NCBI RefSeq assembly: GCF_902652985.1
Contig: NC_047019.1
Span: 23,808,001 to 23,872,000 of the forward strand
Origin: Pecten maximus
Lineage: Eukaryota
Reading direction: 5' to 3'
DNA: 64,000 nucleotides
The notes under the pieces are model-generated. The model ran no database searches. It saw only the letters and a list, made by a program, of their open reading frames with translations, and was not told the origin of the DNA. Numbering within the stretch: position 1 is the first letter of the stretch; every line of letters starts with the position of its first letter. A program made the translations under genes and the position numbers. Below, in pieces: positions 28,777 through 63,383 of this stretch.

Positions 28777-31700
28777 TTATCTCCCTTGTTCACGTTTTGA
28801 CATGGCTTCTCTGCCGTGTGGAGTGGTGAAGTCGATTTCTGGTCCAATGGATACAATTCTTGTTGGGTTGATAGATTCATGACTTGTCTATAAAATAACA
28901 ATAAGAGAGATATAAGTCGTTAGTTTCTACACGAATCATCATACTGTATCCTGTATTTCTGAAGGATGATTTCAGGGTCTAATAAAATAAATAAAAATAC
29001 CAAAACGTTAAATGAAATACGACCCTGGACATATAAGTCCCAATCCAGTGGAGGGTTTACAGTTGTAATCAGTAACTACAAGTTCGTTTTTATGGATACG
29101 CTAAACATTCAAGGTCGACCGCGGACTCACCATGTAGTGCTTTGTGATGTGTTCAAAGTTCACGGTGTCGGCCACCCCTGGGATCTGGTATAACTCCCTC
29201 AGGTATCCCCACATGTTAGGGTAGTCAACAATCCGCTTCTTGTTACACTGGACAAAATGTAAATAAAATTGTTTATGTTTTGGGGGGAAAATCTAATTTG
29301 AAATTACTAAAGATAAATATTCTTTCAAGTAGATCTCATTCACTGCATGTTATAGTTTAACTATAAGATAATATAAGATAAGATAAGATAAATTTGTGGA
29401 ACAAATACATGGATGTTAAATTCCTTTCCCGGCACATGCTAACATTGCAGACATCACTAACATACTCCGAACACTAATAATCAATACAGAATAATCATTC
29501 ATTTATTTTGAACTACCTTGAAATGTCCTACGTAGACCAGATCAAACCGTATAAGTGTTGTGAATAGACGGATATCCGCTTCCGTCAGCTCCTTCCCGGC
29601 TAGGTAGCGGGTTTTAGACAGGATGTCTTCCACCTGAAGCAACAAAAAGGTGTTTTCGAAACAATTACTAATTGCAACAACACAAACTGGTGATTTTGAA
29701 TGCATTTGACAATTCTGACCTTATCAAGCATCCAATGTAATTATCTCAAGGATAGTTAATGGTGATACATTGTACCTTGCGGTATAACCTTTACTAATAT
29801 ACAATGTAGGCAAAAAATAAGAATTGTCCAATGGTAGTTGTTTACGAAAATGATGACAGCGAAATGGTGTTACAGACAATGCGTTGCCAATAGGATACTT
29901 TAACAACTAGGATCCACTGATATTGTGTCCAGGACAATAAATAAGCTTGAATTAGGGATTTCTATGTACAGTACCTTGTCCAGACCCTGGAATAACTCTC
30001 GCACTGCTACATCATATGCTTCTTGAGTTCTTGCAAAACCGCTTCTGTACACACCATTGTTAACCATCCTGTAACGTATCGTGTTTTTCAGTAACACAAA
30101 AAGCAAATGATACCGACATAATAACAATACTGTAATTCTAATAACTTTCATGAGTCACTAACGATGCAATATTGAAACCTTAACGTACGTAGTCAGTTTG
30201 AATTCAGGCATAAACATCACACACTCTATTCTAACTTGAAGTTATGTATTTGGTAACAAGGGTCAAAATTAATATTCGCTTGCTTTACTGATTTCAATGA
30301 ATTGACTCTGACTTTTATATAAGCTTGCCAAGTACAACTCCGAAATTTAGTACATGGATTTGTATCAAAAGCTTGTGTGAGACAATGTAAGGGCTGATGC
30401 AAATGGTAAAGCTTTTGGCTACCTATTCTACATTGACTTATTCCCCTTTGAACAAGTACGTACAATAGGCCAACTCCCAAACGATAGTTATATAATAACT
30501 CGAAGTCTGCAATTGTCTTATGAGGATTATAAGTAATAATACAGTTATAATTTTCGCATAGGAATGGCGTTTTAAGTTGGTATACATTTGTAAACTATGC
30601 ATCAGGAATTCAATGTGATATTAAAAATCAATACAAGATAAAGTCAGTAATACGTATAACTAATTACCTATTGAAGACGACCAAGGAAGAGAAGCGCGCA
30701 TCTTAATCTACCTGATTTAATATGACAAGGCTTTTGCTGGTTTAGATTGTGTGAAAATGATCTCGAAATAGGTAAAGGTAAATGAGAAAACATTACAAGA
30801 TTCCCAAAACTATGCATAAACTGTAAATTATACGATGATAATTTGCATTATTTCGTTTTCATTCTTCCACTAAGCAATTGCTTAGATCCAAGTTATATCA
30901 GATTGCTGAAATCCTCAACTCAACTATAACTTAAACGATAACAAATCTTACATGCATCATGTTGCTATCCGATACGAAGATCATATTCCAGACATATTCA
31001 TTAGACAGGTTTGCATCAAGTTTGAATTAGTATTATGGATATATCAATGTGGCGATCAACAAGAAGTAATTTACCCGACATTTATCTGGTTGACATCGAT
31101 CCCTGATCATACATACGGATAAATCCATTCGTTGACTCCATCTATGTCCTTCTGGAGGGTTTTAGGATAAAAGTCTAACTTCTTCTGTTCTTCGTTGGCA
31201 CAGTAAGCATTGAATTCTGAGTTTAACATCTGGATAATCTCGCTCGACTCGTTGTTTACAATGGTTTTCTTTTGTTTATCCCACAGGACGGGAACGGTGA
31301 TACGACCTTCGTAATCTAAAACGGGACATATGGCTGTCATAGATTTGTAATATCAACATGAGCGATGAAGACGTAGCGATTCGACACAGCTCTAGAACAG
31401 GACACGAATAGTAGGAAGAAAGTGGCATGATTTATACAACTAGGCTGAAGGTCTCGAACACTGAAATACTATGAAACCTCAGATTTAGGCAGCTGTATAC
31501 TTTTTCTTAAAATGCCTCAAACACATCTTTTTGACGTATAAATGTCTTATGTGTTTCATTTACATCATGTATATGTAAAAACATCACGAATTATTATATT
31601 TGCCTGAAATGATTAAATTAAATTGGTATATTGAGACTCACTGACCTGGGTTAGCTATCCGGTAAACCTCCCGCAAACGTGAGCAACAATTCACAGTGTC

Positions 31701-34700
31701 CAAATTACAATTAGGTTTCTAGATATATAAAACGGAATGAATACTCATGTAAAATACATTTTACAGACGGATTCTACAACTTTTTTCAACGGTATCATTA
31801 TAACTAATAGACGCATTGAGTATTACAAACAATGGTTGACAATCAACACAATTTTGTCACTTCTAAGAATCTATCAATTTGAATGTAAATTGCATTGACG
31901 GAATGTATGCTTATCGGACATAAGAAATGAATAGACAAAGAAAGCATTTCATTTCATTTCCAGAGTACAACTATTATAACGATGGATATATATAAACATA
32001 ACTATATCCATACCTTGTCCGTGAAAGACCACCCTTGTCCGTCCATGAACCAATCTACAACGTCACAGGAGATGGTCTGTTCCAACCCCTTGAGTTTCCT
32101 AACGATCAGGGTACGGTGAGCCCATGGACAAGCTAGGCTGACATACAGGTGATACCGCCCGGACTCTGCCTTATACCCAGACGATCCATCCGCTGTATAG
32201 GCGAGAAGCAAATCAAGAGGCAATGTGAGAGAAGATATTATCATTAATGCCTATTTATAAGCCTATAGTTTTGTTTCTTTCTTTTTCAGTTTTCTTCTTC
32301 TTTCTATTAAATACTTCAAAAGGTCTTGATTGAGGATGTCTCTGCGTTAAGTCAAATGGTGTCTGAAAGTAAAGCGCGCGTGTTTTCTTTATCCTTTTCA
32401 AATTGATTCCTTGCTGACATATTGCGACTCTGTAACATTTCCTATAATAAGTGTGCCACTTGGCAGAAAACTAGTTTTGCGAGCCATGGATATTGTTAAC
32501 TAGCCACATACACAATTAGTATCCAGAGATTATGCTTGGAATGTCCATCAATTGTTTGTAATGTGATAACAGCTAGATCGACAAAAATATCGTTTCCTTC
32601 CTTATATTCAATATACATTGTTACAATACATACCCTTATCATTCGGGTGATTTCCCTGTTATAACACTACTGTATTACCTTATTATTCCCGACTGGATAT
32701 ATTACATGTACCTACTGTAGTTCAGCGTGTGTAAATCCTCACTATTTATGATGACATTCTCATTCAGATGTCACTTACCAGTTATCCTACAAAAAAGAAT
32801 ATCCTGACATTAAAACCTTTTTATTATTTCAAAAGTACAAATTTAGGTATACCGTTATGTTCACAGAAATGGCATGATAAGTACATGTATAACACAGGTA
32901 TACCAAATAAACACATGCAATGTGCATACCTACATGTGTAACAATATATTTCAAACTGAAAGTACGCATTTGTAATTCTACGAAAAGGAGTGCAAAATAT
33001 TTCCAGAAGATTGAAAAAAGGAATGAGTGTACACATCTTTTAATCGAGACACTCGCAATGGAAAAAGTCAATAGATATAATAGTAATGACAACGACCGAT
33101 ATAAAGCATTCAGTTGAAAAGCTAGAACGCACGTTTGTTTATTTCATTCATCAAGCAGACAACCTTGTCTGTAAAGCGATAGATATCTGCTTCTACCATG
33201 GAATGTGTATAAAGCAGTCAGTTGAAAAGCTAGAACGCACGTTTGTTTATTGCATATATCCAGTTGAAAAATTAGAACGTATGCATGATTACCTTTTTAG
33301 CATGGCCTAATCAACGTTTCAGTGATCTCGTTTGTAAAACTATTACAAGGAACATACTATGTAACCAGAGATGTTTTCTTTTTCCCTTTTAAAGGGTATT
33401 TGAATCCTCAGGCGATCACATTTGTTTTCATCGTGAAATTATTTTTGTGATTAAAAGATAATAAATATTAATTATTCGCACTTGTTTTCACATATGTATT
33501 ACGATGTTATCGGATTGAGGATTATCGGTGAGTTTTAGATTTGATTTTAAGCTTAATTTACGTTATGATGTAGGAATAATGCATATTATTTTGTAGAATG
33601 GTATATATTAAATCATGATAGCATACATTTTGGATATGGAGTTTAACTGAATTCGGCTTATATCGAGCTTGAGACTGAGTAAGCATTTCCATACCTAAAA
33701 CTCATACTTGTGATAGGATTACATTTGTGATAAACACGATGTCTATATTTTGATTATGTTTTTGTTGAAGGACGTAAGTTGCAATTTAACGATAGAACTA
33801 CTTTAGAGAGTCAACAAGGATATCCCGACTATGTGTAATGTAAGCGTAAGTGCAAAGTAAACCGGAAATTCACGATGAGATCAGTGTCAGTGTTTCTATA
33901 ACAGTGTACGTGACCCTATGACCAATAATCGGTACACGATATCTAGACCGATATATGATTCTACCGAGGAATGCGTATACTGCGATCATCCAGTTGAAAA
34001 GCTAGAACGCACATTTGTTTACTGTATTCGACAAGCGGACAGTCTGCTCTATAAAGCAGTGTATTTATCCAGGTGAAAAAATAGAACGGATGTATGACTA
34101 CGTAGCATGGCTTAATCAACCGTTTTAATTATCACGTTTGTATAACCAAAACCTGCGTCCTTTTTTGTAACAACTGGTAGGGACATAACCATGGATATTC
34201 TGATCATTCGATTGTCTCTTTAAGAGCGCATAGTCATTTGAAGATTTGATTCCACAATTATTGTTACAAAACCGGTAATAAATAAACAAATAAATGCATT
34301 AAATTTCATAGCCGCTGTCACATACGTATTACGATATATTGGATTATGGATTATTGTCGAGTTTTATATTTGATTTCAAACTTATATTAAGTTATGTTGA
34401 TAAAGGAGTTTTTTTTAGATCATAATACATTATGAGAAACATTTCTTTATAGATATGGAGTTGTTAACTCTAAGCTTCAAAGTGAATGCTGTAATCTCAG
34501 ATCATCCTCCTGTTATAAATGCCTGTTTACTATAACTCCCTATAGGTGATCAGTGTAAACAAATAACTGCTGAAACACTGTGATAGTAATGGATTGAGCG
34601 AACATTTCAATACCTATAGCTTCTACTTGTGATAGGATTTCATTGTTGTTTGGCGTGTGCCTATATTTTGATTATTATTTGTTGAGTAATGTAAGCTGGC

Positions 34701-36226
34701 ATTGGATTACTGCTCTCAGAAAGACAGCAAAGAAATCTTTATCACGTGTTATGATCAGAAGTAAAACGAGTTCAAGATAAACCGGAAATAAAACAGATAA
34801 TAAACAGGAGTAATTCTATAGTGGAGTGAGTTTCCCTTGGACCAATCTTCGGTAGGCAATATCTAGATCGATATCTGGTTCCGCAGAGTAGCGCGCAATC
34901 TCTTATCAGTTGAAAAACTAGAACGTTTGTTCAGTTTACAAACAGGAATGCATGTTTTATTGTACAAGTAATGATAATACATAATCGTTTTTTAGTATCT
35001 CATTGATATCACCACTGTCCCTTACCACCCAGGCCTAGTTATATGTTATTATCATACTGTTTTTATCGATAAGTTTGTCATATTTTAAACTTGATCGATG
35101 TATCATAAGTACGCTGTGTCTGTATACATATGTATTGTTAAGGATTTCAACTTATACACACATACATGTTTTCATAAACATTGTCGAGTTTGTCATATCT
35201 GTGAAAAGCTAACATCGCGCATACCTGACACCAATCTAGACGTTACCTATACAGTTCAATTTCTACACAAGTTAGATTCAATGACACCAAATGTCCATGA
35301 ATTTGACCAGATTAACTGACCGCTTCGCTACTGCACATGATGTAAAAAACATTTTGCAGGAATGATTTTGTGTCAGAAATATCACACATTCTTCCCGATC
35401 CTGTAAATCGCCCGAATGGACCGAAAACTGTGAATTCGTGTCAAATTCCTGTCTTAGAGGTGGTCGAAACGTAACGCGCTCCATAAGGAACTGCTCTATC
35501 GATCATAAAGAAATATTAGTAAACATCCACGTTCTTAAAACTATGATATTCTCCCAAATAAAATGAATAGAATATAACATAGGTCTGTTTCTCACACATG
35601 ATTATCTCAGCCCGAGTGTTAGTGTTTTGCCAGTCAGTACGAGACGTGCCGAGTGCAGGCCAGCCAAACTCTTACACGAGGGTTGAGATAGCCTTGTTCG
35701 CGGAACAGACCCATGTTAACTGTTTTTCTCAGAGACCTGCAAGCAAATGTAAGTTTTTAAAAAAGTTTTTTCATAGCGAAATATAAAATGCTCCTCTCTA
35801 TTCACATGATCAAAATATCATATATTGGGTTTTGCGGACGTTTTAAATGATTTAAGTCATTTTTTAAATGCGCAGATCGATATTGATCTGGTCAAATACA
35901 TGGACAAATGAAACTGATAGGTTTCAATTAGCCCAATTCAACTAGACGTCGGGATATGATGTGTCGAGAGCAACTTAAATTCGTCACTCCATGAAATCAA
36001 CCAAAGAAAGATATGATTCTAATATGATCTTATAGTCAAATCATAATATGCGTTGTATTGTTGTCTGGGTAAATCTTAATAAGATAGATGTTGACATGAA
36101 TAAATTCATTTTTATACTAAAAATAAAGGATGCTTACCAATCGCGGAAGGAAGACTTTACCCTAATGAACTCTCCTTTCATTGAAGTGGGTATTTCAAAC
36201 CCGGCCTTGGGATCAGGAACCGCCAT
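28777..36226 (-). CDS. yqjG: Glutathionyl-hydroquinone reductase (YqjG/ECM4, Xi-class GST), copy A, 328 aa, 9 exons
   Basis: Exons 36226-36138, 32786-32779, 32192-32014, 31718-31646, 31315-31117, 30068-29975, 29633-29517, 29247-29131, 28887-28777 (987 nt, open frame). Motifs: [96 protein letters not shown]. Confidence 0.9.
32779..32786 (-). CDS. 8-nt micro-exon (GATAACTG) of copy A
   Basis: Context ttgtag|GATAACTG|gtaagt. It joins phase-2 exon 1 to phase-1 exon 3, giving W-I-T-A. Confidence 0.85.
33105..34930. repeat. Diverged ~900-bp tandem duplication in copy A intron 1, punctuated by CAGTTGAAAAGCTAGAACG motifs
   Basis: Collinear matches: ~33490/34318 (CACATAxGTATTACGAT), ~33705/34624 (ACTTGTGATAGGATTT), ~33859/34779 (AAACCGGAAAT), ~33920/34840 (GACCAAT..ATCTAGAxCGATAT), 33991/34907. 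Confidence 0.8.
35574..35720. repeat. Imperfect long hairpin, probable terminus of a non-autonomous DNA element
   Basis: TAACATAGGTCTGTT..TATCTCAGCCCGAGTGT pairs with ACACGAGGGTTGAGATA..AACAGACCCATGTTA. Confidence 0.6.
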
Positions 36227-38733: not shown

Positions 38734-41700
38734 TCATGTTTTCTGCATGGCCTCCCTGCCATGTGGAGTAGTGAAGTCGATATCTGGTCCAATGGATACA
38801 ATCCTTGTCGGGTTGATCATAGCGTGGCTTGCCTGTGAAAATAACAAAAGAAGATGTATCACATTCCATTACCTTGGACAGGGCGGTCCACACTTGTAAT
38901 GGGTTGAAGTCAACTGCAACACTTTAATGTCATCAGTTCAATCACGCCACATCGGCAATGATTTGTATTGATGAGGTCATATCGACATTACATAACACAG
39001 TTCTAGCTAAGGGAAACAATATTTCACTCTTTTTGGTATGGGTTGATTTCAACCTTCGATTAAACCTCATGTTTGTCACTTTTAGAGCCTTCTCCCCAAG
39101 ATTGAGATCCTGTGTTATCTTCGGAAATGAGGGATTCTATGTATTTGAAGCTTTTACTATATACAAGCATTTATCAAATAAATAATGATGATTATTTTGT
39201 CGATATCATTATCTTGACAACGATTACAGCTAGCAGGGATATGTTACTGTTGCTATAATTTATATTTTGTAACAGACTCACCATGTAGTGTTTAGTGACG
39301 TGTTCAAGGTTCACGGTATCAGCCACCCCTGGGATCTGGCACAATTCCCTCAGGTATCCCCACATGTTAGGGTAGTCAATGATCCGCTTGTTACACTGGG
39401 CGAAATGTATAGAAAAGAAACATATGAAATAAGTTATCTGGGCACCATTGACATTCAAGATTTAAGCATCTTTTTTTTTAATTAGAGAAAAAAAAATTAC
39501 ATTACAACACATTGACATAAATTTACATGTTAACACTTTGATTCCAAACTTACAAACATTTCTTTTAACAGTTATCCGTTTATTTGTTGCAGAGTTTAAA
39601 CGTTCCGAATTTTGATTATCAAGACTGATTATTCAGTATATAATCTTCAAAATACCTTAAAATGTCCTACGTAAACCAAATCAAACCGTATCAGCGTTGT
39701 GAATAGACGGATATCTGCTTCGGTTAGATTACTCCCTGTTAGATAGCGGGTTTTGGACAGAATATGTTGTACCTGTAAAAAAAACAAAGGCACTCAAGCA
39801 AAATGATCAAACCCACAATATCAATTAATCCAAATTTTAGCGACGGAGCTGTCGGCAGCCAAAAGATGAAGATGATCAACCTGACTGTGTATCAAACAAG
39901 ACAAGAAATAGGATGTATATACGTAGACATGATCGTTTTGTATACGAAAGGTGAGAAACATTGTTGCTATGTTCAGAACAAAGAATATGGATTGAGTAAG
40001 TCCTGTGTACCTTGTCAAGACCCTCGAATACTTCACGTACAGCTGCATCATAGGCTTCTTGACTTGTTGCAAAACCGCTTCTGTACACACCATTGTTGAT
40101 CATTCTAAAAAATAGTTTGTATATCAATGTCTGGTGCTTTAGCATCAAAACATGTAATGAGTTGGCCCTATAATAAGTGAATAGAAATGAAAGTTCTGAA
40201 ATAGTAAGTGATAGTTTAGGATAGTTTGTATCAGTTGTCATATGGCGTTCGCAACATATCATATAATATCATATAATAGAAGGAAGGCAAGACACCAGAT
40301 TTTTCTTCCAAATAAATACAGCATGATTAACATGTTAAATTCTCCTCTTTATTTCATATCTACAGGCTATAATCGTATGTAAGCCCCCAACTTAGGATGG
40401 ATTAATGACCTGGAGTGTAGATATTATAATTTCAAATTCTTGTAAATATCACTACAACCAGACCGCAAATTGTCAATTACCTCCCTTACATTGTGTTCAA
40501 AAGCTAAAAACCATTTTTGATACATCAACCAACCTAGGCTCAGAAAGGGATGGTAAATGTATGGAAGTACATCAGATAAGACTTGTTTTGCTAGTCTTTA
40601 GAATATTTTGCAATGTCATAGGGGCTGGAGATGTAAATAAAAGCAGCGTTCAATTTAGTTTGAATTTAGAAGAGACTTTACTGGGATATAGTGAAGTTTC
40701 AAATATCGAATCTGTTCGATGTCTGTCACGTGGTTATGATTAGTCTGTCTCACACTAGAAATTGTGAAAAAACCTATAAGCGATGCTTCATTAATTATTG
40801 ACCGATATCACTAAAACTCTGAAATATATGTCTTCAGCTGGTGATTAATGTTAATGATAATAAAAATGATAAATAACTCTTAACGTAAAAGTAATTCAAA
40901 TTTTGTGCCATGCTCAGTAGTCCAACTAAATATAAACAGAAAAAAGTAATGGATTAATGACTCTACTAGGAGAGGTCTTACATATTGTACCTACGGATAA
41001 CTCCATCGATGTCCTTCCGAAGGGTTTCGGGATAAAAATCTAACATCCGCTGTTCCGCGGTAGAACAGCAACCATTGAATTCTGAGTTAAACATCCAGAT
41101 AATCTCGCTCGACTCGTTGTTTACAATAGTTTTCTGTTGTTTATCCCACAGGACGGGGACGGTGATACGGCCATCATAATCTAAAACATGGCATGCACTG
41201 GTGGTAACATCAAAGGTTAAAAAAATCGGCTAGGGTGAAGGCATATTGATGTTACTGACAAAGTTTCCAAACACAACATGGATTGGAATGGTACTGATAC
41301 TGTTTTAACAGGAGGAATAAAGTGATAGGTTGACTGAATCTAAAAAAAATCAGAACTAGGAAGCGATGTAACTTTAAACATACTTTCAAACACAACTTTA
41401 CTGCATCCTTTTTCTTATAAGTGCCATTTAGATGTTGTAAAATGCATTGTAAAATGCATTGCTAACGTGAAGTACATGAATTGAGAGAAACTAACATCTT
41501 AATAGGCCAACAATGATGAAATTCAATCGCCATAACGAGAATTTGACTGACCTGGGTTAGCTATTTGGTAAACCTCCCGCAATCGTGAACAACCGTTGAC
41601 AGTGTCAAAAGTACAATCAGCTTTCTGTGTAAACATAAAACAAGATCTACATTCATTTTCTTTATGACGGAATTTCGGAATGGCACGTTAACGAGTTTTC

Positions 41701-44700
41701 TATAGACTCAATGAATGGTGAAGGGGAGGGGGGGGGGGGGGGGGGGGGGGGGGCAAAACAACATTTGAACATAACATATATATAAACGGATATCAGAAGA
41801 GAATAGACATACAAAACATTTTGTTTTATTTTTCTACATATTATACCTGTTGCAAGTTTATAACCATGAATACATACTTTGTCTGTGAAAGACCATCCTT
41901 GTCCATCCAGGAACCAATCTACAACGTCATAAGAGATGGCCTGTTCCAATCCCTTGAGTTTCCTAACGGCCAGGGCACGGTGAGCCCAGGGACAGGCTAG
42001 GCTGGCATACAGATGATACCGCCCGGACTCCGACTTATACGCAGACGATCCATCCGCTGTACGTGCGAGACCAATGAATAGCGTGAAATAAGCAAAAATG
42101 CATATTGAGAGAAGAATTCGTCGTTATTGACAGTCATTCATTATTGGCAGTCATTAAAAAAAATTCTTGCTTTTTCAACATGAAATTTTGCACTTACTCA
42201 CTTTTAGGCTACATCTTACATATTCCATCTGTTCGATTATGTCAATGCATTAAACAAAGAATAAGAAGAATGTCAAACATGGAGAAAAAATATAATCAAC
42301 CTTATACATGTAGCATGAATCATATGCAATTCTGCTTCAAAACACTTATATGCATTTATATAATGTTAAATCTATTGAGAAGCATTTGAAATATCATCAC
42401 CAAATTGCTTGATCTGATTGCTATCTAAAAAATGGCGAACTAGTAACATTTCTTGTGCTGTCGTGGGATATTAATTACAGGTTAATTCGATTAACAAGAA
42501 CAAGTCTTCCCAACCTTCCTAAGAAGAGTGTTATTCAATACTTTCACAACATGTTGTTACAGTACAGGTAAACTTATCATTAAGTAATTTGATTGTGATG
42601 ACACCCTATAATTCTCCAACGTTATACTTTAAAACTTCTTACTTCACTCCAGCATGTGAAAATCCTACGGCTCATGACGTCATCATGTAGCCATTCAAGT
42701 TTCACTTACCCGTTATCCTACAACAAAGTAAAATCCTAATGAAAGCAAATATAGGTTTAAAGCTATATATTTAATCATTATATGAATAATCTTCATAACA
42801 CAGGACTTTAGAAGATAAATACATTTATACATGAAAACCTAATTATGTATGTCATCATTTTAAACCGAAAGTGCGTCCATGAATAGGTAATACCAGAAAT
42901 TGTACATCATAATAAGGAGAGATAATTCGGCCATAGTTAAAAATAAATACAATTTGTTGATACTTTGTTCTACTATAAACTACATGAAGAAATATAACAG
43001 GAAATTATATGTCCATGGGTGGTACAGGTAAATACTCCGCGAAAGGTCTTGTCCTAAATGGCTTGCTAAGTAACTATTTCCTTTCTTAGAGAACAACAGT
43101 AACTGGTAGAGAGTAATTATCTAAGTATTCATCTCATAATCAATTGTTTTCACAAAACCACTTTTCACAAGTCGCTCATATTATTTTTATTGTGTGTTTT
43201 TTTCTGTTATTTATCGAAATACGTATGATTGTCTAGACCGATGAATTTTACTCGTCCCCTTCGTCCCTTTAAGTTATATTAATTACAAGGGGACTTGTCA
43301 CGAATCCCAAACCCATAATATATCATACATATATACATGGACCATGGGTTAGGATTTCGTGAAAGGTCCATATGATTTCAAAATTGTACTTTATGACATC
43401 CTCTGATTAACCATGATTTCATCGTCTAACAGTAACATTGGTGATGTGATTATAACGACCGGAACTACCACCCCAGACCTGCCATGTAGTAGCTAATGAT
43501 ACAGTACACATTTTACATATCGATAAATCTACCGTAATTTCCTGCGTATTGCCCGCGGGCTATACGATTTATTTTACACCAGAAGATGTCTAGCGCAGGC
43601 CTTATGCTGATGTAGCCTATCTGTGGATTTTTTTTACTAAATCAAAAAAAAAAAAAAAAAAAAAAAGGTGGGCTATACGTTGTTAACTTTTTCCATTTGT
43701 ATTGAAACAGCAGATAAAGTAACTGATTTCAATGCGTTATATTCATGCATATGTAGGCTAGATCTAAGCTAGTTGTAAACAAAGTAAAGTGTGATAAGTT
43801 TAAATATAGATATATTTACAAAATAAACACAATATTTCCATCATATGTCTATGATTTCTATCATTCAACACATCATCGGTAAATCACAAAGTCACCATCC
43901 GTCAAAGTATGATGGCTCAGAATCACTTTTAAATAAATCCAGATTGACCTGGTCTAGTCGAGCAATCTAGGTAAGTGGTAAGTCTTCGTCGCTGTCGACG
44001 TATAACCTGCGGGCAATCTGCTAGTGCGCGCTATCTGGAATTTATTTTACAAAAGCATAAAAATGCCTTAATCCACTTCCCGGGGCTATACCCCGGAGCG
44101 GGCAAAAAGCAGACAATTACGGTACTGTAATAAGTTGCTTTCCAAAAACGGCCGATATAACCAGGATGCATGCAATTTTAACCTATGGCCTGTTTATCAA
44201 ATGTCCATACAGACATTTTCATATTGATATTAACATTTCGTTTCAGATACAACATATAAGTACATTTATAGGAATCATAATCTTTATTCAAATATATCAC
44301 CAAGATTTTTGCTATGATTTTTTTCCGAGAATTCCTTTATGAAATTACCCTGGTGATCGTGCTGTAAAAATGTCTACATCAACAATTTTGAATGAATTCG
44401 GACGCCGATTGTTAAAACACATAAAGGATTGCAATGGATAATCCATTTTTAAGCAACAATCATATTTGAATATGATTAGCAAGATCAAATAATTGTATTA
44501 AATATCAGTGTTCAATGTAAACAAACTTGTATCATCATTATTGAAAACAATATATTTTACTTCCTGAGGTAAACTGAGCCATTAATTAATGTATCACTAG
44601 ACTAGATATACGTATGTATTGTGAAAATGAGGATGGGGAGATTACCTTGTTCAAATTTTCAACTAGGTCATCAATGCCAATATTCTACCTCATCTCTGCT

Positions 44701-45980
44701 GTTAGATTACAAATGTTGATTTCTCCAATCTTATTATTTTTTGGAGTATACCATTAACCTTGTTATGTAATTGATATTCAAAGACAGAATTTGAAGTCCT
44801 TGATAAATGACATTTGCAACACGTATTGGTCTCCATTATCATTCTTTGTTATTTCTAACAGCTGCTGTCTCTTGGCTCAGTTTCTTGACAGAGATGACAT
44901 CAATGACATGTTTTTCACATCATCATAAACAGCCTTAACAAAATGTCAAACTATTATTGAAAGGTAGATGCGTTAACCATTCAAGTCAACATATATCAGC
45001 TGAAGAGTAAACGCCGTTATCATATAAATTCTACAACACTATTAATAAAAATGCAGAGGTTACTGATCGACGATGAAATTATAGTTAATCAGTAATTGTT
45101 TAAGTACATGTATTATAAATCAAACAGTCGGATGGGAGGAGTAATGTTCAGGGGTCAGGAGTATGTCATCTCACCTGTACTAATGGTCAATGCCACAGTT
45201 ATAGCTTGACACCTGTTTACAGTATACTGGCTACATTGAGCTGACGACGGCTTAAGATTTACAATCCAATTACTACCATCCTAGATTGATGTTGTAGTGA
45301 CAAGATAATATCTATTCTGTTATGCTGAAACATCACATGTACTAAATTCCATTCCAAGAACATTTCATAAGGAACATTTGTAGGAACTATATCCTGTGAG
45401 AAATACGATGAGGTATTCATACACGGAAATACAAAGAAAAAGGGAACTATCAAATTGTAACATGGCGGAAACAATTATTTTGGGTTGTCTCAAAGGGAAC
45501 GGGACCAAAATGGATGAGTACAGCTGCTCGCAGCTATTGAAGTTAAAATTCTACCGTCCAAAAACACTGCTGAAAAAGATAGCGACTTGCTGTGAAAGCC
45601 GTGAGCCATTCGAAAACAAAATATAATATCCCATTTGCAGTAAACAACCGTGGCTAATGCAGTGATGTCCAGGCGCCCACGCAATAAAGTGTGCATGTAA
45701 ACACAATGTGTTGTTTTGCAACCTGATATTTTTAAAAACTTATATAATGCATACAAATGTACACGCTATGCCTTTGATTGCAATGATTAATCAGTGAAAA
45801 TATTATCTTCCATCGAAGGTTTGTGAATATCTAGAAATGAATGTTGTTGTGTTTCACCTGGGATACACCTTTACACTAATTCTATGCTTACCAATCCCGG
45901 AAGACTGATTTTGTTCTGACGAATTCCCCTTTGGTTGAGGTAGGGAATTTTAACTCGGCATTGGGATCGTTGTCTGCCAT
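38734..45980 (-). CDS. yqjG: Glutathionyl-hydroquinone reductase copy B; 13-nt deletion in exon 5 (pseudogene, or rescued by a shifted donor)
   Basis: Exons 45980-45892, 42717-42710, 42056-41878, 41624-41552, 41180-40995 (or to 40982), 40104-40011, 39772-39656, 39395-39282, 38832-38734. CPWA is retained. Exon 5 is 186 nt versus 199 nt in paralogs; exon 8 has an in-frame 3-nt loss. Confidence 0.8.
42710..42717 (-). CDS. 8-nt micro-exon (GATAACGG) of copy B
   Basis: Context ttgtag|GATAACGG|gtaagt. Confidence 0.85.
43530..44124. mobile_element. Tc1/mariner-pogo-type MITE
   Basis: 25-bp TIRs CCGTAATTTCCTGCGTATTGCCCGC / GCGGGCAAAAAGCAGACAATTACGG (4 mismatches), flanked by TA on both sides. Confidence 0.8.
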
Positions 45981-48223: not shown

Positions 48224-48845
48224 TATTCTACCATGTTTGCTATGTAACGCCAGTTTTGATTGGTTAAAATCATGTATTATTTTCCAATAACCCACGCTCG
48301 TGCCAATAATGCACGCTCGTGAGTCACGGCTGTTGCAATTTTAAATATCTAATATTCACCCGTTTCATGAAAGGTTACTGTAGCCGAGTGGGCTAGTGGG
48401 TTAGTCTTTCAATATATTTTTATCACGACGCGAGTTCGAATCCTACGGAGGCCCCAACTTTTTTCTTTTTTTTTATCCTTTTTTTTTATTTTCAAAATCA
48501 ATGCCATATGCTAGATGCTCTTGATCGTAGTACTGTATTGCCTGTATATTTCATCAACAAATAATGCAATACTCAAGAAATAAATTACAAGGTTTTCCCG
48601 GGGTTTCTTTGCTGTTTTTCTATTAGAAAGAGGTCGATCTCAGAACTAAACAGTACATGGTAGAATAGAAATAATCAACTTTGACTCGTGTATTGTTGCA
48701 GGATATACAACTCGGACTCGGATATTTTGCAATTTTAATTAATAACTCAGGCCTGCGGCCTTCGTTATTAATTTAATTGCAAAATATCCTCGTCCTCGTT
48801 GTATATCCTGCAATAATACACGAATCATCGTTAATTATTTCTTAA
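48224..48845 (+). mobile_element. ~620-bp non-coding insertion in the LINE ORF2, with asymmetric inverted repeats, a tRNA-like Pol III unit and a terminal ~87-bp-arm hairpin
   Basis: LINE peptide ..HSINNI | ITEQDVKDQL.. is split here. IR TATTCTACCATGT (48224-48236) / ACATGGTAGAATA (48655-48667). Hairpin 48667-48842. Confidence 0.75.
48373..48460 (+). ncRNA. tRNA-derived Pol III-type unit (not a canonical tRNA)
   Basis: A-box TAGCCGAGTGG, B-box GTTCGAATCC (48434-48443), 5' GGTTACTGTAG able to pair with 3' CTACGGAGGCC, and T-runs from 48459. Confidence 0.5.
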
Positions 48846-50238
48846 ATAACTGAGCAGGATGTTAAAGATCAGCTATTCCTTTTGAATGGAAACAAACCAT
48901 CAGGACCCGATGATATGATCCCCAAAATAATCAAAAACCTTCACCCCTCTATACTCCTTCCTCTCACTCTTTTATTTAATAAAACACTTGAAACAGGTTC
49001 AATTCCACTTAACTGGAAAATGGCTAATATCAATGCCATATATAAAGGAAAAGACTTAATCAATGAAGTGTCAAATTACAGACCCATCTCGGTTACATCA
49101 TGTTTTAGTAAAATGTTAGAAAAAATTATATTCAAATACCTATACAATTACCTGACTACTTATAGAATTATTACTAAACATCAATTTGGATTTACACCAA
49201 AAGATTCTACTGTTAATCAATTATTGTCTATCTACCATACCATTGTTAACTGTCTGGATCAAAATAAAGAAATCAGATTCATTTTCTGTGACATAAGTAA
49301 GGCTTTTGACAGGGTTTGGCATGAAGATCTACTTTATAAATTAGAATCATATGGTATTAAAGGGAATCTCTTAAACTGGTTCAAAACATTTTTATCGGAC
49401 AGAAAGCAGAGAGTTTTAACTGAAAGTCATGCATCTACATTTGATCCAGTCCTGGCAGGAGTTCCTCAAGGGTCTGCCTCGGACCATTAATGTTTTTAAT
49501 TTATATTAATGAAATTGTTGATTGTGTCACTAACAAAATTAAGCTATTTGCCGATGACACTTCTCTTTAAGGTATAAGTGATAACAACCCCATGGAATCA
49601 GCTCAAAACTTATCTGATGATTTAAATAACATTAAAAACTGGGCAACTAAATGGGATATTAAATTTAATCCTGCTAAAACACAATCAGTAATTTTCTCTA
49701 GAAAAAATGATAAAAACCATCCTATTATAAATTTCTATGATGAACCAATTACTGAAATCAAAGCACATACACATCTAGGTCTAACTCTGAATGATGATGC
49801 CAAATGGAACCAGCATATATCTAATGTTTATGATAAAGCATTTAAAAGGATTAACATATTAAGACTACTGAAAAATAAAATAGATAGGAAATCTTTAAAT
49901 ACTATTTATACTGCCTATATAAGACCAATTATTGAGTATGCAGATGTTGTTTGGGATAACTGTTCAAAAGCCCAAAAAACTCTATTAAAATCAATCCAAC
50001 TGGATGCAGGACGATTAATTACAGGCCTACGAAAAGGTACTTCACATGATAAACTGTATAATGAACTAGGATGGGAAACATTAATACAGTAATAGAAGAA
50101 ATAAACATAAACTTATTTTAATGTACAAGATAATGAATAATGAACCCCCAGATTATTTAAGAGGAAAATTATAGAACCGTATATTCATGATGAAACTCTT
50201 GATCGTTATACTCTTCGTACAAACAGATTATTTATTTG

Positions 50239-50271
<33 letters not shown>

Positions 50272-50944
50272 TTGTGCCGAACAGTGAATTATTTTGAAAG
50301 TTATTTTCCATCTATGTTAAACGAAATGAATAGTCTAGCCCCTCAACTCATAAATATCAACTCTACAGCACAGTTCAAAAAATCATTAAACACAAACTTG
50401 CATAACAAATCTGATACAACTGATGTCTTTAAATATCTCGGTAGTCGTTGCATAAATATTGTTCTATGTCAACTACGAAATAAGGCAAGTAATCTCAATT
50501 ATGATCGTTATAAAGATCATCTAATCGAATCCCCAATGTGTGATTGCAACCAGTCTTTTGAAACTGTAACTCATTATTTTACTGAATGCAATAAATATCA
50601 GAATCTCCGCCAATCTCTTGAACAACAATTAATACATCAATATCACAATCACATGGTTGTGTCAGCTGCAATGACAACCAGAATAAAGATATATTGGTAC
50701 ATGTATCAAACTTTATAGTACAGTCAAAGAGACTCTAAAATTTATTTATTATTATTATTTCTTTTTTTTTTTAATGAAATTCACATATACTTTGAACTAT
50801 TTATTCTTCAGTATGAAATAATATCTTAACCCTAAGATGACCACCATGATACAGCAGGCTATGGGCAGCCGTACTAAATCTTAATTACATCAATTCACTT
50901 ACAATTATGTTATGTATGTTTTATTATATTTATATATCAGATAG

Positions 50945-51709: not shown

Positions 51710-54700
51710 TTAACTTCTTAACATGGCGTCCCTGCCATGTGGAGTGGTGAAGTCAATATCCGGCCCAATGGATACAATTTTTGTCGGGTTGATTACAGTA
51801 TGACTTGTCTATAAAGAAAATAAATAAAGCAATATATTTAGATATAGGGTGTTTCAGCTGTGTTGAATGAAATGAAATATGAATTGGTTGATAAAAAGGA
51901 TCTCAACATTACATAATAAACCATAACTATAATATATGTCAATCGATATACGTCCTCATAATATCACTAAATATCGCGATTCCGTACGTACAACGTGTAG
52001 TAGTGACATGTATAATTGTTTATTGATAGATATCACCTACACATGTACCAAACAGTACGACGTGTGTTACATTGTGATTATGATCAATACTAACAATGGT
52101 TAAGAAAATGCAACTATAAAGTTTATATCATTTTTCTAAAACGCTGTCAAATAATCATTTTTTACCAAAATCATTGTTTTGAGGACGAAGCAGCTGTATG
52201 ATGCAGGTCGATCTGTTATTTCATGCCTTTTGTAAAATCCTCTTAAACGTAATGAAGGAATTGACCGTAAAGGAAACTTACCAGATAATGTTTAAAACAT
52301 AACATTGCTACACGTTTTACATATTGTTTGTATACAATATTGATTAGGTTTGCAACAAACTCACCATGTAGTGCTTAGTGATGTGTTCAAAGTTCACGGT
52401 GTCAGCCACCCCCGGGATCTGGTACAACTCCCTCAGGTATCCCCACATGTTAGGGTAGTCTACAATCCGCTTCTTGTTACACTGGGCGAAATTATATCAT
52501 ATATTACGAGGTTTCATATCAAATTAAGATTACCATAACAATTTGAAACCGAACATAGTCATATCTTTCGTAACTGTTATCCGTTGAATTAGTGCTTATT
52601 TGTTCCGAATACTGATTATCATGATCAAAAGTTCGGTATATAATCTTGAACTTACCTTGAAATGCCCTACGTAGACTAGATCAAACCGCATAAGCGTTGT
52701 GAATAGACGGATATCCGCCTCTGTCAGATTACTTCCGGTTAGGTAGCGGGTTTTAGACAAGATATCTTCTACCTAAAGAAACGGAAACAAAAATAACGCT
52801 TTAATTGAAACAGAATTCTTAAAGCCGACATACACATCCATTTTACATTTAAACAAGGGAGCTTATATTAGTCAGAAGCAAAAGGATGTAGATACTCATC
52901 GTGATAGTGTCGCCCTACATAAGGCTAGGTTAAAAGTATTCTAAAAGAGAGCATTATTACTATACATTTACATATCTCCCTTCTTAAGCTTCATAAACTC
53001 TGACTGCGAATAAAATAGTAAATACGCAAAGAAAAAAAAGCTCAGCGTATTAATAAGCGCGGGAATCGGTAATATAATTCATGACATCGTCTTTTTGTGA
53101 CGTGATGAAACGTCAACTAGACGGCGCCCTATTGTAATGACTGATCAACGTAATTCTAGTGTTTTCTCCTTTTACCTGATGATCTCTGTACAAAAACGAC
53201 AAGTGAGTTTTTGTTAAAAACTATACTGAATATTACGGAAATGCATAGGTGCATATTTAACTTTCCACGAGAAAGGCTAACAACAAATAACTGAGACATA
53301 CAGCTCCAAGAACATTCGAACACATCACTACTATATCTGTGTCAATGCGCTCTGTGCATGACAACCATGATTAATCTGAGACGGAAATTGTGGATTGTGA
53401 ATATATCAATTCATTAAAGACGTGAAAGATATTAAACAAAAATGTTTAGTTCTTTTAATTTTGTTAACTATACTGGTGTATTTACGTAGATTCACTGGAA
53501 CTATATTAGCTTAACAACCATAGTTACCGACGTCGCAACACATCTCGACTTTCATTTTCTTCGTAGGTATTTCAACGATTTGTTTGCTGTAATCATGAGG
53601 ATTGTACCCTATTTTGACTGCCTATTCGGTAGTATGTCCGCAGTTGGCAACGGACATATTCTATGGAGCGCTATCGCGCTAATCATAGAAAACGTTCATT
53701 GCCTCCTGCGGATAGTCATAATGAGGTACAATCTTTAATTACAGACCAATAAGTACGCATCGAGTAAGCATGTGTACCTTGTCGAGACCTTGGAAAACTT
53801 CACGTACAGCTGCATCATAGGCTTCTTGACTTGTTGCGAAACCGCTTCTGTACACACCGTTGTTGATCATCCTAAAACAAGGCTTGTATATCAACGACTG
53901 GTGCTTTGACATCAAAACATCTAACGATGTGGCCTTATTATAAGTGAATGTAAGTGAATGTACGTAAATATGTCATGCATGCGAAGAATACTTACGTTTT
54001 TATGCTTGATATGTAGACTTACTTATGTTTTGTTTTTTGATGGATATCCGACATATATTATGACGTTCGCAAGAGTGTTCTTTGTGAAGGAATGAATACA
54101 TGGTACCAGATAAATACAGTGTGTTAAATGATTCTCCCCTTTATTCATTATCTATATATCAGGGGAAAGAAAAACAAATCTTGATCTAACCAGGATTCTT
54201 GACGCTAAACAGGTATCCGTTTTAGTTTATTTTTGTATTCTTCTTTACTACTTTTACCAATACGATAATGCATGCAGCTTCCTATATTGTAGTTTGAAAA
54301 TGATATATAATGTTTGAATATTTCATCTTTCTCTCTGTGGAGCCTTAAAGTTTCAAACGAGGTAACAAATGATTCTTTCTTAAAATATGTGCGATTATCA
54401 TGCTTGAAGCGTTGTGATATATTAACATTGCGCTAAATTAATCATTGATAGATAGCGTTTGAAAGTATGCATTGTTTTGGAAACAGAAGAAAAAAATACC
54501 TTCAGTCGGTAATTAACAATGAAATACTTATTTCTTAACAGTCAATCATTAATTTCACTTTTCAAATACATACGGATAAATCCATTCGTTAATTTCCTCG
54601 ATGTCCTTCTGGAGGGTCTCAGGGTAAAAGTTCAACTTCTGCTGTTCCTCGTTGGCACAGTAAACATTGAATTCCGAATTGAACATCCGGATTATCTCGC

Positions 54701-57587
54701 TCGACTCGTTGTTTACAATGGTTTTCTTTTGTTTATCCCAAAGGACGGGAACGGTGATACGGCCATCATAATCTAAAAACAGGACAACATGCCATGCACT
54801 TGTAGTAATATCAACATCGACAAAAGTAATGATAAGTCCTCCAAGGTGAGGCCAGGATAATGCTGCTGACATAGCTATAGAACTTGATAACAAAAGATAA
54901 GTAAGAGATTGATAAGGTTGATCGTAAATAGGAATTGATAGTTCAACAACACTACGCGGGTACCTATATAAAATGAAACATCAGAAACTGGGCAGCGAGG
55001 ATACCAATTTAAACTGAAACATCAGAGACTGGACAGTGAGGATACCAATTTAATCTGAAACATCAGAGAATTGGCAGTGAGGATACCAATATAATCTGAA
55101 ACTTCAGAGACTGGGCAGCAAGGATTCCAATATAAACTGAAACATCAGAGACTGGGTAGCGAGGATAACATATAATTTGTAACATTTGCGACTAGAGGCA
55201 TTGATGTAACAATTGATCTTTCTGTATTTTCTTTAATAATTCATTAATATTGTGTAAAATACACCAGCAATGTTACAAACCATATACCAGAACAGATTAA
55301 CGAGACAATATGTCTAAACTATTCAGGGAAAATTGATACTGAGAGTAATTTACCGACCTGGGTTAGCCATACGATAAACATCCCGCAACCGCGAACAGCC
55401 GTTGACTGTGTCCAAAGTACAATTGGGTTTCTAGATAAAGAAAACCAGATTAACATCCAGAAAATCAAAATGATTGACAACGAAATATTATCAAATATTG
55501 AAAGAAAAAATAACAACCAAGCATCAGCCATTTGGACCTAAATACCGAAAGCCTGCTAAAAGGTATGTTGCTTTCCGCAATGAATGCTAATTAAGTATAT
55601 GAAATGAATATGATTATGATGATGGCTGGTTTTATGTACATGTTTTGTATGGTGGGAATCCAATGATTGCCTGGATGAACGACCGTTGTCAGTGATGGCC
55701 ATGGTTATTTCGTGGTTCGACATTTAGATAGTGTGATAGGATTCTTCACTGAACGACACCTAGGATCGCTGATCTAATTTTCAGTGGCTAAGATGATTTG
55801 ATAATAATTGTAGTTATATATAAATTATATATTTGCTTGTTAACGTGCATCTCTGAGAGGGCTAATATGGCATGTTGCCAAATAATTTTGTGTTAACGTT
55901 GTTTGAAATGAATTGATACCCACAAAGTACTGAATCCTTTCTATACCAAGTGTAACCATTATTTTATTGGAATAGAAAATACAAACATACCTTGTCTGTG
56001 AAAGACCATCCTTGACCGTCCAGGAACCAGTCTACAACGTCATAAGAGATGGCGTGTTCCAACCCCTTGAGTTTCCTAACGATCAGGGTACGGTGAGCCC
56101 AGGGACAGGCTAGGCTGACATACAGATGATACCGCCCGGACTCTGCCTTATACCCAGACGATCCATCCGCTGTATATGTTAGAGTCATTGAATGGCGAGA
56201 TATCAATATAGGTATATCAGAATAAGACTTTATGGATCATGTATTTTCAGTCCATTTTCTTATTTGTATTCTTTGTTAAATGTTCAATTTTATCTTTCTG
56301 ATTTTTAATCGTCATCTTATCTCATTATTATCTAATACACGTAGGATGTACTCTACATTACCGTCTTTAAAGTTATAACATCTCCATAAAGTGATGGTAA
56401 TTCAATACAGACTCGATCACACAAAAAAAAAAGAAAACAAATCTGTCCAGTGTATACTTTAAAACGAATTTGCCTTTTATTGCTTAAAATTCGTGGCAAA
56501 GTGTGTTATATATTATTCATGGAACTATATCAATAACACCACTTCATTCTCACCACTATTAGTGTCTGTTCACGTTACTACACAGGAATATTGTGTAACG
56601 GGGATTACCTCCCCTGTACGCCTTTCCATTTCGTTTGGCTGATAAGAAATTGAAGCATAGCGACTATTTATTATATTATGAATTAATGAAGTAAAGGAGG
56701 TGTAAGCCACGAAACTGTTGAAAATTAACCTTCTGTATAAGCATCCGGGAATCATGTGGCCCATGATGTCATCTAAGGTTATCAAGTATTACTTACCGGT
56801 AATCCTACAACAGAGAAAAAATCGTGATGAATACCTTTGTGTTTACCCTGTTTACATTTAGGTATACCATATATGGGTAGTATTCATCACACAGACACAC
56901 CAAATAGACATGTAGATATGTATTCGGTGCACATGAACAGCTAATGATATATTAAAAAACGACAGTTCATGTACATAATTGTATGTAATATCGAAATGGT
57001 AACCAACTTTTTTTTTTTAAATATATCAAATATGGAAAACAATAAGGTCATAGACAGAAAGATCATCTGATTGATAAGATATTTTCATTGTAAGGAATTG
57101 AACCTTTAGTTTCTGTAAACATTTTTATGATCTCTTAGTAGTAGCTAGTTTTGTATAGCGGTGTGGCGTACCTAAACATTATTCTGAGTTCATCGAAGAA
57201 TTAACTCAGTGGTATTGTCAGTTCAGTTGAAAAACTAGAACGCGTGAAAAAATCAGAATGACCGCACCCCCACAGGTCTAAGTATAAAATTTGAACTAAC
57301 AATACAGTAATAAATAACACTGTGTACCGGTCGATAAATATACGGTACATATATATATTCACGTTTGTAGAGTATGAAAACACATTGTGGTGAAACGCGA
57401 AAGCATGTACGTGAACACAAGTGCTCCCTAGCCCAGACAGCCCATTTGTATATGCCGGGAAAATAAAATTAGCGTTTTATCAAAAGATCAATGCTTACCA
57501 ATCACGGAATACTGATTTAGCCCTAAGGAACTCTCCTGTGGTTGACGGAGGTAATGTAAACTCTTTCTTGGTATCAGGGACAGCCAT
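51710..57587 (-). CDS. yqjG: Glutathionyl-hydroquinone reductase copy C, 324 aa, 9 exons
   Basis: Exons 57587-57499, 56804-56797, 56169-55991, 55430-55358, 54772-54574, 53871-53778, 52772-52656, 52481-52365, 51808-51710 (975 nt, open frame). All family motifs are intact. Confidence 0.9.
54970..55172. repeat. 41-bp-unit minisatellite, ~5 copies, in copy C intron 4
   Basis: GAAACATCAGAGACTGGGCAGCGAGGATACCAAT recurs at 54975, 55016, 55057, 55098, 55139. Confidence 0.9.
56797..56804 (-). CDS. 8-nt micro-exon (GATTACCG) of copy C
   Basis: Context ttgtag|GATTACCG|gtaagt. Confidence 0.85.
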
Positions 57588-63300: not shown

Positions 63301-63383
63301 GATTACTTCGCTTGACTCGTTGTTTACAATTGTTTTCTTTTCTTTATCCCACACGACGGGAACGGTGACACGGCCGTCGTAAT
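60304..63383 (-). CDS. yqjG: Glutathionyl-hydroquinone reductase copy D, partial (exons 5-9; 5' exons presumably beyond the window)
   Basis: Exons 63383-63185, 63049-62956, 61720-61604, 61156-61040, 60414-60304. Exons 5-8 match the paralog lengths (199/94/117/117). A 1-nt insertion near the end alters the C-terminal tail. Confidence 0.88.
60654..60975. repeat. 68-bp-unit minisatellite, ~4.7 copies, in the last intron of copy D
   Basis: TTACCT recurs at 60654, 60722, 60790, 60858, 60927. Confidence 0.92.
62398..62859. mobile_element. MITE (unclassified) with 20-bp TIRs, abutting a decayed Helentron-like remnant (~61960-62396)
   Basis: AGGGAACAACCAACCAATTG / CAATTGGTTGGTTGGTCCCT (1 mismatch). 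Confidence 0.75.

What the first reader, a model, noticed from the sequence alone, without database searches (positions are those of the whole stretch)
28777..63383. Tandem expansion (at least 4 copies) of intron-rich glutathionyl-hydroquinone reductases in an animal
Seen: four same-strand paralogs with the same exon layout, the catalytic CPWA motif (in A, B, C), and the three conserved Tyr contexts (NGVY, FDLVY, KHY). Established: YqjG/ECM4/PcpF-type Xi-class GSTs are characterised mainly from bacteria, haloarchaea, fungi and plants and have no mammalian counterpart. Inference: an amplified invertebrate module for recycling glutathione-quinone adducts, for example from dietary algal phenolics or tyrosinase-derived quinones of shell tanning and melanisation. 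Eight introns argue for long residence rather than contamination or recent transfer.
Basis: partly seen in the sequence, partly recalled or inferred. Interest (0 to 1): 0.72.

Follow-up and report, generated by a model that had tools for sequence, protein, structure and literature searches.

The report
Scallop cluster of quinone-salvage enzymes
Four tandem scallop genes encode a glutathione-quinone recycling enzyme family that several specialist papers say animals lack, yet relatives occur across many invertebrate groups; three copies are intact, one is damaged, and one keeps a predicted mitochondrial targeting leader that two others have lost.

Summary
Confirmed. Four minus-strand paralogs (A-D), each with 9 exons and 8 introns, including a conserved 8-nt microexon; two exon searches of the assembly find exactly four copies. 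All keep CPWA and the Tyr triad. Copy C is 58% identical to E. coli YqjG and folds like Xi-class GSTs (TM 0.83-0.89), not omega (about 0.5). The copies are diverged paralogs (dS 0.47-0.65, dN/dS 0.16-0.21), not haplotigs. A, C and D are intact. B has a 13-nt deletion that removes two residues invariant in 69 of 69 other animal sequences. RefSeq already calls A, B and C 'YqjG-like' (Pecten maximus). Named homologs span ten invertebrate phyla, often as 2-4 copies, so the gene is old in animals and the expansion is unexceptional, although three papers say the class is absent from animals. New here: many animal homologs carry a basic, acid-poor leader before a second Met; D keeps the scallop version, A and C have lost it, which suggests mitochondrial and cytosolic forms split among duplicates (untested). 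The diet or shell substrate idea has no support here. Earlier scan notes cover only E. coli yqjG.

The parts
28777..36226 (-). Copy A, intact, 328 aa. Exons 36226-36138, 32786-32779 (8-nt microexon), 32192-32014, 31718-31646, 31315-31117, 30068-29975, 29633-29517, 29247-29131, 28887-28777
   Evidence: Model; 328 of 328 residues identical to P0006 = XP_033740534.1
36227..36334 (-). Remnant of the leader-coding region upstream of copy A: homologous to the scallop leader, but with no in-frame Met and an in-frame stop at the place where copy D has its upstream start
   Evidence: scores 53 against the Ylistrum leader, 0 of 2000 shuffles as high; 44 of 2000 against Mizuhopecten; 609 of 2000 against Argopecten
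38734..45980 (-). Copy B, damaged. Exons 45980-45892, 42717-42710 (microexon), 42056-41878, 41624-41552, 41180-40995 (13 nt short), 40104-40011, 39772-39656, 39395-39282 (3 nt short), 38832-38734. The ancestral donor gives a stop after 179 aa; donors 4 or 13 nt downstream keep the frame (320 or 323 aa) but without N178 and W180
   Evidence: RefSeq XP_033740538.1 (P0098) uses the +13 donor
51710..57587 (-). Copy C, intact, 324 aa, most conserved copy, no upstream in-frame Met. Exons 57587-57499, 56804-56797 (microexon), 56169-55991, 55430-55358, 54772-54574, 53871-53778, 52772-52656, 52481-52365, 51808-51710
   Evidence: 324 of 324 residues identical to P0004 = XP_033740535.1
60304..63383 (-). 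Copy D, exons 5-9 (63383-63185, 63049-62956, 61720-61604, 61156-61040, 60414-60304). Exons 1-4 lie beyond the window at L001:3521-3433, 2591-2584, 1810-1632, 1117-1045. Intact 328-aa frame, plus an upstream in-frame ATG at L001:3623 that adds a 34-aa basic leader
   Evidence: no identical protein among the hits (best 84%)
32128..32130 (-). Catalytic Cys codon of CPWA in copy A (Cys54; aligns to Cys63 of YqjG); equivalents start at 41994 (B) and 56107 (C)

Best explanation
These are four tandem, intron-rich scallop copies of a Xi-class glutathione transferase that likely work as glutathionyl-hydroquinone reductases, likely inherited from an early animal ancestor, with copy D predicted to supply a mitochondrial form, copies A and C a cytosolic form, and copy B likely decaying. 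Shown: gene structure, copy number, conserved active-site residues, purifying selection, spread across invertebrates, B's lesions, presence or loss of the leader. Inferred from family knowledge: Cys54 attacks the sulfur of a glutathione-(hydro)quinone adduct, frees the hydroquinone and becomes glutathionylated; a second GSH removes it as GSSG; Tyr190, Tyr248 and Tyr291 shape the site. This salvages quinones that glutathione has trapped and stops the adducts from redox cycling. Inferred from sequence only: the ancestral gene made a long (leader-bearing) and a short form from two in-frame ATGs, and the duplicates split these roles. My odds: GHR-type activity of A, C and D about 0.9; vertical animal ancestry about 0.8; leader is a mitochondrial presequence about 0.6; partition helped retain the duplicates about 0.4.
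For: Sequence: YqjG E 1e-116; all 11 PDB hits at E<=0.001 are chains that the fold search titles or PMC4138524/PMC5063366 place in Xi/GHR; omega GSTs only E 0.3-1. Fold: pLDDT 93.8; TM 0.83-0.89 to ranks 1-30 and 0.75 to rank 31 (all Xi/GHR), 0.44-0.52 to the omega, tau and other GSTs listed after them. 17 of 17 checked active-site positions are kept in all four copies. Selection: pairwise dN/dS 0.16-0.21; each copy has fewer private amino-acid changes than neutral (p<=0.006). Spread: named homologs in sponges, cnidarians, molluscs, a brachiopod, a bryozoan, an annelid, tardigrades, echinoderms, hemichordates, amphioxus and tunicates. Trees: bacteria 98/95 and fungi 99/97 each exclude all 22 animal rows; pectinid copies form one clade, 100/99. 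Leader: 19 of 78 named animal proteins have a Met-started extension before a second Met, with 15% R/K and 2.7% D/E against 12.7% and 13.2% in the mature parts; 16 of 19 have net charge +3 or more. D's 34-aa leader has 8 R/K and 0 D/E (0.8% of 5000 stop-free random translations have >=7 R/K and no D/E) and matches the leaders of three other scallop genera (0 of 2000 shuffles each). A YqjG-labelled protein is listed in a quagga mussel proteome table (PMC11036304).
Against: No enzyme assay and no expression data for any copy. Animal monophyly is only moderately supported: SH-aLRT 98 and SH-like 98 (there the bryozoan fell outside), but 49/83, broken with 46% of bootstrap trees holding it, 78/54 with named rows only; not rejected by AU (p 0.73). 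No choanoflagellate or other unicellular holozoan was identified, so the origin before animals is open. The leader's hydrophobic moment (0.54) is not above the random median (0.49; 95th percentile 0.73), no targeting predictor was available, and transcription starts are unknown. 59 of 78 named animal proteins show no such leader in their annotated form. D is missing from the database hits. B has an upstream in-frame Met too, though its extension does not match the scallop leaders (315-1117 of 2000 shuffles as high). The excess of amino-acid change in B is significant against C (p 0.013) but not against A+C+D (p 0.09), and A is nearly as relaxed.
Confidence: 0.7

Rival explanations
1. Ordinary birth-and-death duplication of a detoxification gene: the extra copies add dosage or drift, and the leader was lost by chance without any partition of function.
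For: Two to four copies in many unrelated invertebrates; B carries lesions and A has a raised private dN/dS of about 0.35; Ylistrum's two copies group with each other (97/94) rather than with Pecten copies, as recurrent turnover predicts.
Against: A, C and D have kept full frames, all splice sites and the microexon over dS of about 0.5-0.6; a leader-bearing copy is seen in each of four scallop genera.
Confidence: 0.35
2. One reading: an adaptive amplification for handling dietary algal phenolics or tyrosinase-derived shell quinones.
For: The chemistry fits family knowledge (PMC4138524 passages); Argopecten has 3 copies, Ylistrum 2 and Mizuhopecten 2 (one partial), each set on contigs of equal length, while most other bivalves list one cluster.
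Against: Sponges, tardigrades, hemichordates, urchins and tunicates also have several copies; all checked active-site residues are identical among the four copies, so there is no sign of substrate divergence; no tissue data.
Confidence: 0.2
3. Assembly artefact, contamination or recent transfer from bacteria.
For: 58-59% identity to E. coli YqjG is high for an animal gene; B's 13-nt deletion could be an assembly error, which I could not check against reads.
Against: Copies are 78-86% identical in protein and only 2 of 48 intron pairs align; 8 spliceosomal introns; a 51-Mb contig with animal neighbours; closer homologs in other scallops and other invertebrates than in the sampled bacteria; the bacterial clade excludes animals.
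Confidence: 0.02

Closest known systems
E. coli YqjG (PDB 3R3E, 4G0I/K/L) and other Xi-class GSTs / glutathionyl-hydroquinone reductases: PcGHR1 3PPU, poplar GHR1 4USS, yeast ECM4 5LKB, PcpF 4FQU, NmGHR 6GZF
   Same: Length about 325 aa, CPWA, Tyr triad (Y190/Y248/Y291 align to YqjG Y195/Y253/Y296, read off the alignment), fold (TM 0.83-0.89), 58% identity to YqjG.
   Different: Animal host, nine exons with an 8-nt microexon, tandem array, an optional basic N-terminal leader. Activity and dimer not tested.
RefSeq 'glutathionyl-hydroquinone reductase YqjG-like' models of Pecten maximus (XP_033740534.1, XP_033740535.1, XP_033740538.1) and of many other invertebrates
   Same: A and C are letter-for-letter these models; B matches with a different donor and start.
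   Different: These are automatic labels. D was not among the hits, B's damage is not flagged in the name, and my searches found no paper that studies an animal member.
Plant GHR families (Arabidopsis GHR1-4)
   Same: 2-4 genes per genome, some with N-terminal organelle targeting (GHR1 and GHR4 predicted chloroplastic; PMC4138524 table passage).
   Different: Plastid rather than predicted mitochondrial targeting; plant rows form their own clade.
Omega-class GSTs (human GSTO1/2)
   Same: Catalytic Cys in a CP-aromatic-A motif; GST fold.
   Different: About 240 aa, CPFA, 15-17% identity, TM about 0.5, sequence E about 1; they do not reduce GS-quinones (PMC4138524 passage).

Membership tests
Xi-class GST / GHR | CPWA catalytic motif | tested here: met
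   4 of 4 copies; 68 of 69 other named animal rows have CPWA, one CPFA. Feature from PMC5063366 section 14.
Xi-class GST / GHR | Tyrosine triad | tested here: met
   Y190, Y248, Y291 in 4 of 4 copies and 69 of 69 other animal rows; they align to YqjG Y195, Y253, Y296.
Xi-class GST / GHR | G-site and H-site residues named for ECM4 (Arg, Trp, Arg, Val-Pro, Glu-Ser; Trp, Phe, two His) | tested here: met
   R22, W87, R121, V124-P125, E139-S140, W56, F194, H290, H295 in 4 of 4 copies. The mapping to ECM4 numbers is by motif context, my inference, not a direct alignment.
Xi-class GST / GHR | About 330 aa with long N-terminus, extended beta2-alpha2 loop and C-terminal extension on a GST fold | tested here: met
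   324-328 aa; in the model the first strand starts at 46, the loop runs about 77-107, and a tail follows helix 284-294; Foldseek ranks 1-31 are all Xi/GHR chains. Features.
Xi-class GST / GHR | Dimerisation through the C-terminal helical domain | not tested
   No complex prediction was run; a pass would mostly reflect likeness to solved dimers.
Xi-class GST / GHR | GSH-dependent reduction of GS-(hydro)quinones | not testable with these tools
   Needs an enzyme assay.
Xi-class GST / GHR (copy B only) | Intact helix alpha4 leading to the first triad Tyr | tested here: not met
   All three splice options examined lose N178 and W180 (69 of 69 conserved; within helix 168-186 of the model) or truncate at 179 aa.
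Omega-class GST | About 250 aa, CPFA, close similarity to GSTO1/2 | tested here: not met
   E 0.3-1 by sequence, TM about 0.5 and 15-17% identity by fold.
Mitochondrial presequence (leader of copy D) | Basic, acid-free, Ser/Thr-rich N-terminal peptide | tested here: met
   8 R/K, 0 D/E in 34 aa; conserved in three other scallop genera. The criterion is from my own knowledge.
Mitochondrial presequence (leader of copy D) | Amphipathic helix and import in cells | tested here: inconclusive
   Hydrophobic moment 0.54 against a random median of 0.49; import not testable.

The most novel reading that the evidence does not exclude
Animals have an overlooked, ancient branch of glutathionyl-hydroquinone reductases, present from sponges to tunicates and amphioxus and lost in vertebrates, made as both a mitochondrial and a cytosolic form from two in-frame starts; in this scallop the duplicates have split the two forms. 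A mitochondrial form would point to an endogenous quinone substrate (for example intermediates of ubiquinone or rhodoquinone metabolism) and offer an animal model for the open question of what these enzymes act on in vivo.
Probability: 0.35. Interest if true: 0.62.

Novelty: new member of a known kind. Interest (0 to 1): 0.4.

Why it matters
Three papers state that Xi-class GSTs are absent from animals (PMC5063366 abstract; PMC6345682; PMC11673678 of 2024), and a review calls the physiological substrate an open question (PMC4138524; its table does list 'Some metazoan'). The data here show the class is widespread in invertebrates. That corrects a standing statement and adds an unstudied arm to invertebrate quinone and xenobiotic metabolism, relevant to shellfish toxicology. 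The cluster gives a natural test set: a leader-bearing copy, two leaderless copies and a damaged one. The cluster itself is an ordinary tandem duplication that databases already label.

Tried and rejected
Omega-class identity: rejected. Haplotig duplication: rejected. A fifth copy: none in two genome searches or in 103 kb of local tblastn. Seven introns without a microexon: rejected because exon 1 and exon 3 are out of phase in all four copies. NCBIfam gave 0 families for 3 of 3 proteins; Pfam gave only generic GST domains. The ESM Atlas returned YqjG-like clusters but no usable range. Whether the four Pecten copies form one clade is unresolved (not recovered, p-AU 0.36). The sister group of animal GHRs is unresolved: of 20 representative or unnamed proteins looked up, seven could be tied to an organism (two clusters inside the animal clade were a tardigrade and an annelid; none was a unicellular holozoan). 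Tree rows dropped: 17 of 171 added proteins were too short and 25 rows were thinned by hand; searches use hand-picked subsets of 46-54 rows; 19 of 40 bacterial loci were used. No read or RNA evidence was obtained, so expression and B's deletion are unchecked. The one supplement of a Pecten digestive-gland transcriptome paper could not be read (PMC8150855) and may bear on expression. Literature searches that found no study of an animal GHR: 0 papers; 0 papers; the library lacks most subscription papers, so this is not proof of absence from print. Earlier scan notes concerned only E. coli yqjG.
Full report
Observation. A six-frame motif scan shows four sets of GHR-like exons on the minus strand between 28777 and 63383. 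The window is G000:C5:23808001-23872000. Searches of the whole assembly with exon 5 and exon 3 each return four places, all in this cluster (4 of 6 and 4 of 5 candidates). I fetched 39 kb beyond the window; it holds exons 1-4 of copy D and no further copy. Each gene has nine exons with coding lengths 89, 8, 179, 73, 199, 94, 117, 117 and about 100 nt, and GT-AG junctions. Exon 1 and exon 3 are out of phase unless an 8-nt exon lies between them. Such an exon, with a pyrimidine-rich acceptor and GTAAGT donor, is present once in each copy, and the pattern matches nowhere else in 103 kb. My models of A and C equal database proteins P0006 and P0004 letter for letter, microexon included. The source names them 'glutathionyl-hydroquinone reductase YqjG-like [Pecten maximus]'.

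Paralogs, not artefacts. Protein identity is 78-86%, dS 0.47-0.65 and dN/dS 0.16-0.21 over six pairs. Only 2 of 48 intron pairs align by blastn, both B with C. Private non-synonymous to synonymous changes are 16:14 (A), 23:17 (B), 7:20 (C) and 20:27 (D) against about 3.3:1 expected if neutral. All four have been under purifying selection, C most strongly.

Copy B. Exon 5 is 13 nt short just before its donor. The ancestral donor gives a stop after 179 aa. Donors 4 or 13 nt downstream keep the frame, and RefSeq uses the second. Either way N178 and W180 are lost. Both are invariant in 69 of 69 other named animal rows and lie in the helix that leads to the first catalytic Tyr. In the +4 reading B departs from 8 of 121 strongly conserved columns, against 3, 1 and 6 for A, C and D, and it has a further 3-nt deletion in exon 8. 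B is probably impaired or a young pseudogene. I could not check the deletion against reads.

Family. The best solved relatives by sequence are YqjG (E 1e-116) and ten other Xi/GHR sequences; omega GSTs score E 0.3-1. An AlphaFold2 model of C (pLDDT 93.8) matches Xi/GHR chains at ranks 1-31, then drops to TM about 0.5 for omega and tau. CPWA, the Tyr triad and the other site residues described for yeast ECM4 (PMC5063366, abstract, passages and section 14 read) are kept in all four copies. The reaction is therefore most likely the family's: the Cys takes the glutathione from a GS-(hydro)quinone, and a second GSH regenerates the enzyme. The glutathionylated Cys is shown for ECM4; the second step is from my own knowledge. 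Activity and dimer were not tested.

Distribution. Three searches, each listing the best 120 of 8000 scored candidates, plus look-ups, give named homologs in sponges, cnidarians, molluscs, a brachiopod, a bryozoan, an annelid, tardigrades, echinoderms, hemichordates, amphioxus and tunicates (phylum assignment of genera is from my knowledge). No listed name is a vertebrate, arthropod or nematode. That is weak evidence of loss, as the lists are capped and many rows are unnamed. Several copies are common: Argopecten 3, Ylistrum 2, Mizuhopecten 2 (one partial), Patella 2, Anneissia 2, Glandiceps 4, Paramacrobiotus 3, Oscarella lobularis 2. All ten pectinid sequences tested form one clade (100/99); whether the four Pecten copies do is unresolved (p-AU 0.36). 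Animal sequences group together with SH support 98 in two large trees (the long-branched bryozoan fell outside in the second). Careful small trees are weaker: 49/83, broken in the best tree, and 78/54 with named rows only. One clade is not rejected (p-AU 0.73). With named rows only, the 14 bacteria (98/95) and 5 fungi (99/97) each exclude all 22 animals. Recent transfer to scallops is excluded; a single origin at or before the base of animals is likely but not proven.

Leader peptide. Of 78 named animal proteins, 19 have a Met-started extension before a second Met at the usual start (2 lacked the anchor motif and were not scored). These extensions hold 15% R/K and 2.7% D/E, against 12.7% and 13.2% in the mature parts and 11.1% and 6.5% in random stop-free translations of this DNA. 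That composition is typical of mitochondrial presequences (my knowledge). Copy D has an in-frame ATG 34 codons upstream; the peptide has 8 basic and no acidic residues and matches the leaders of Mizuhopecten, Argopecten and Ylistrum (0 of 2000 shuffles each). In A the region is still recognisable, but the aligned position has no ATG and an in-frame stop. C has no upstream in-frame Met and no detectable match. B has upstream Mets in a peptide that does not match. Against this reading: the hydrophobic moment is not above random, transcription starts are unknown, most annotated animal proteins show no leader, and D was not among the database hits. I read it as an ancestral dual-start gene whose two forms were split among duplicates, at about 0.4.

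Literature. PMC5063366 (abstract) says GHRs are in 'all but animal kingdoms'; PMC6345682 (passages) and PMC11673678 (passages) say not in animals. PMC4138524 (passages) says 'excluding mammals', lists 'Some metazoan but animals', and calls the physiological substrate open. A YqjG label appears in passing in a quagga mussel proteome table (PMC11036304, one passage) and a red coral transcriptome (10.1101/2025.05.12.653513, one passage). Ten searches (listings seen) found no study of an animal member; the library lacks most subscription papers. The supplement of PMC8150855 could not be read.

Verdict. The cluster is an ordinary tandem duplication of a gene that databases already label and that most invertebrate groups carry. 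What lifts it above routine is that specialist papers still state the class is absent from animals, and that a conserved leader suggests a mitochondrial form kept by one duplicate. The diet or shell substrate proposal remains untested. Novelty: new member of a known kind. Interest 0.4.

Noticed in passing
window 32779-32786, 42710-42717, 56797-56804 (-); L001:2584-2591 (-): An 8-nt frame-shifting microexon kept in all four paralogs; skipping it would break the frame at codon 30, so it could act as an on/off splicing switch. Its presence in other phyla was not testable.
   Followed up: partly
window 16339-19872 (-): Inhibitor-of-apoptosis-type gene: BIR exon at 19324-19872 and RING exon at 16339-16551 (Pfam).
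   Followed up: partly
window 24103-24339 (+): Last coding exon of a DGCR6-family gene, convergent with the GHR cluster (Pfam).
   Followed up: partly
window 47732-50718 (+): Broken non-LTR retrotransposon (RVT_1 at 48846-49490, several frames) between copies B and C, next to a short duplicated and palindromic repeat at 46932-47634 that recurs about 10 kb beyond the window.
   Followed up: partly
window 7332-10598 and L003 (extended 85450-90893): Two satellite arrays of about 155-bp period occur on both sides of the cluster, one in the same and one in the opposite orientation, 83-94% alike.
   Followed up: no
P0001 (Actinostola), P0002, P0003, P0005 (plants), P0240-P0244: Proteins of 600-750 aa with two GHR domains in tandem; may be real fusions or merged gene models of tandem copies.
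   Followed up: no
P0299 (Watersipora), P0210 (Oscarella lobularis second copy): Divergent animal GHR-like proteins with CPFF and CPYA in place of CPWA.
   Followed up: no
window 40982-40995 (-): In copy B a strong donor lies exactly 13 nt downstream of the ancestral one, so the exon can regain its ancestral 199-nt length after the 13-nt deletion; chance or compensation is unresolved.
   Followed up: partly
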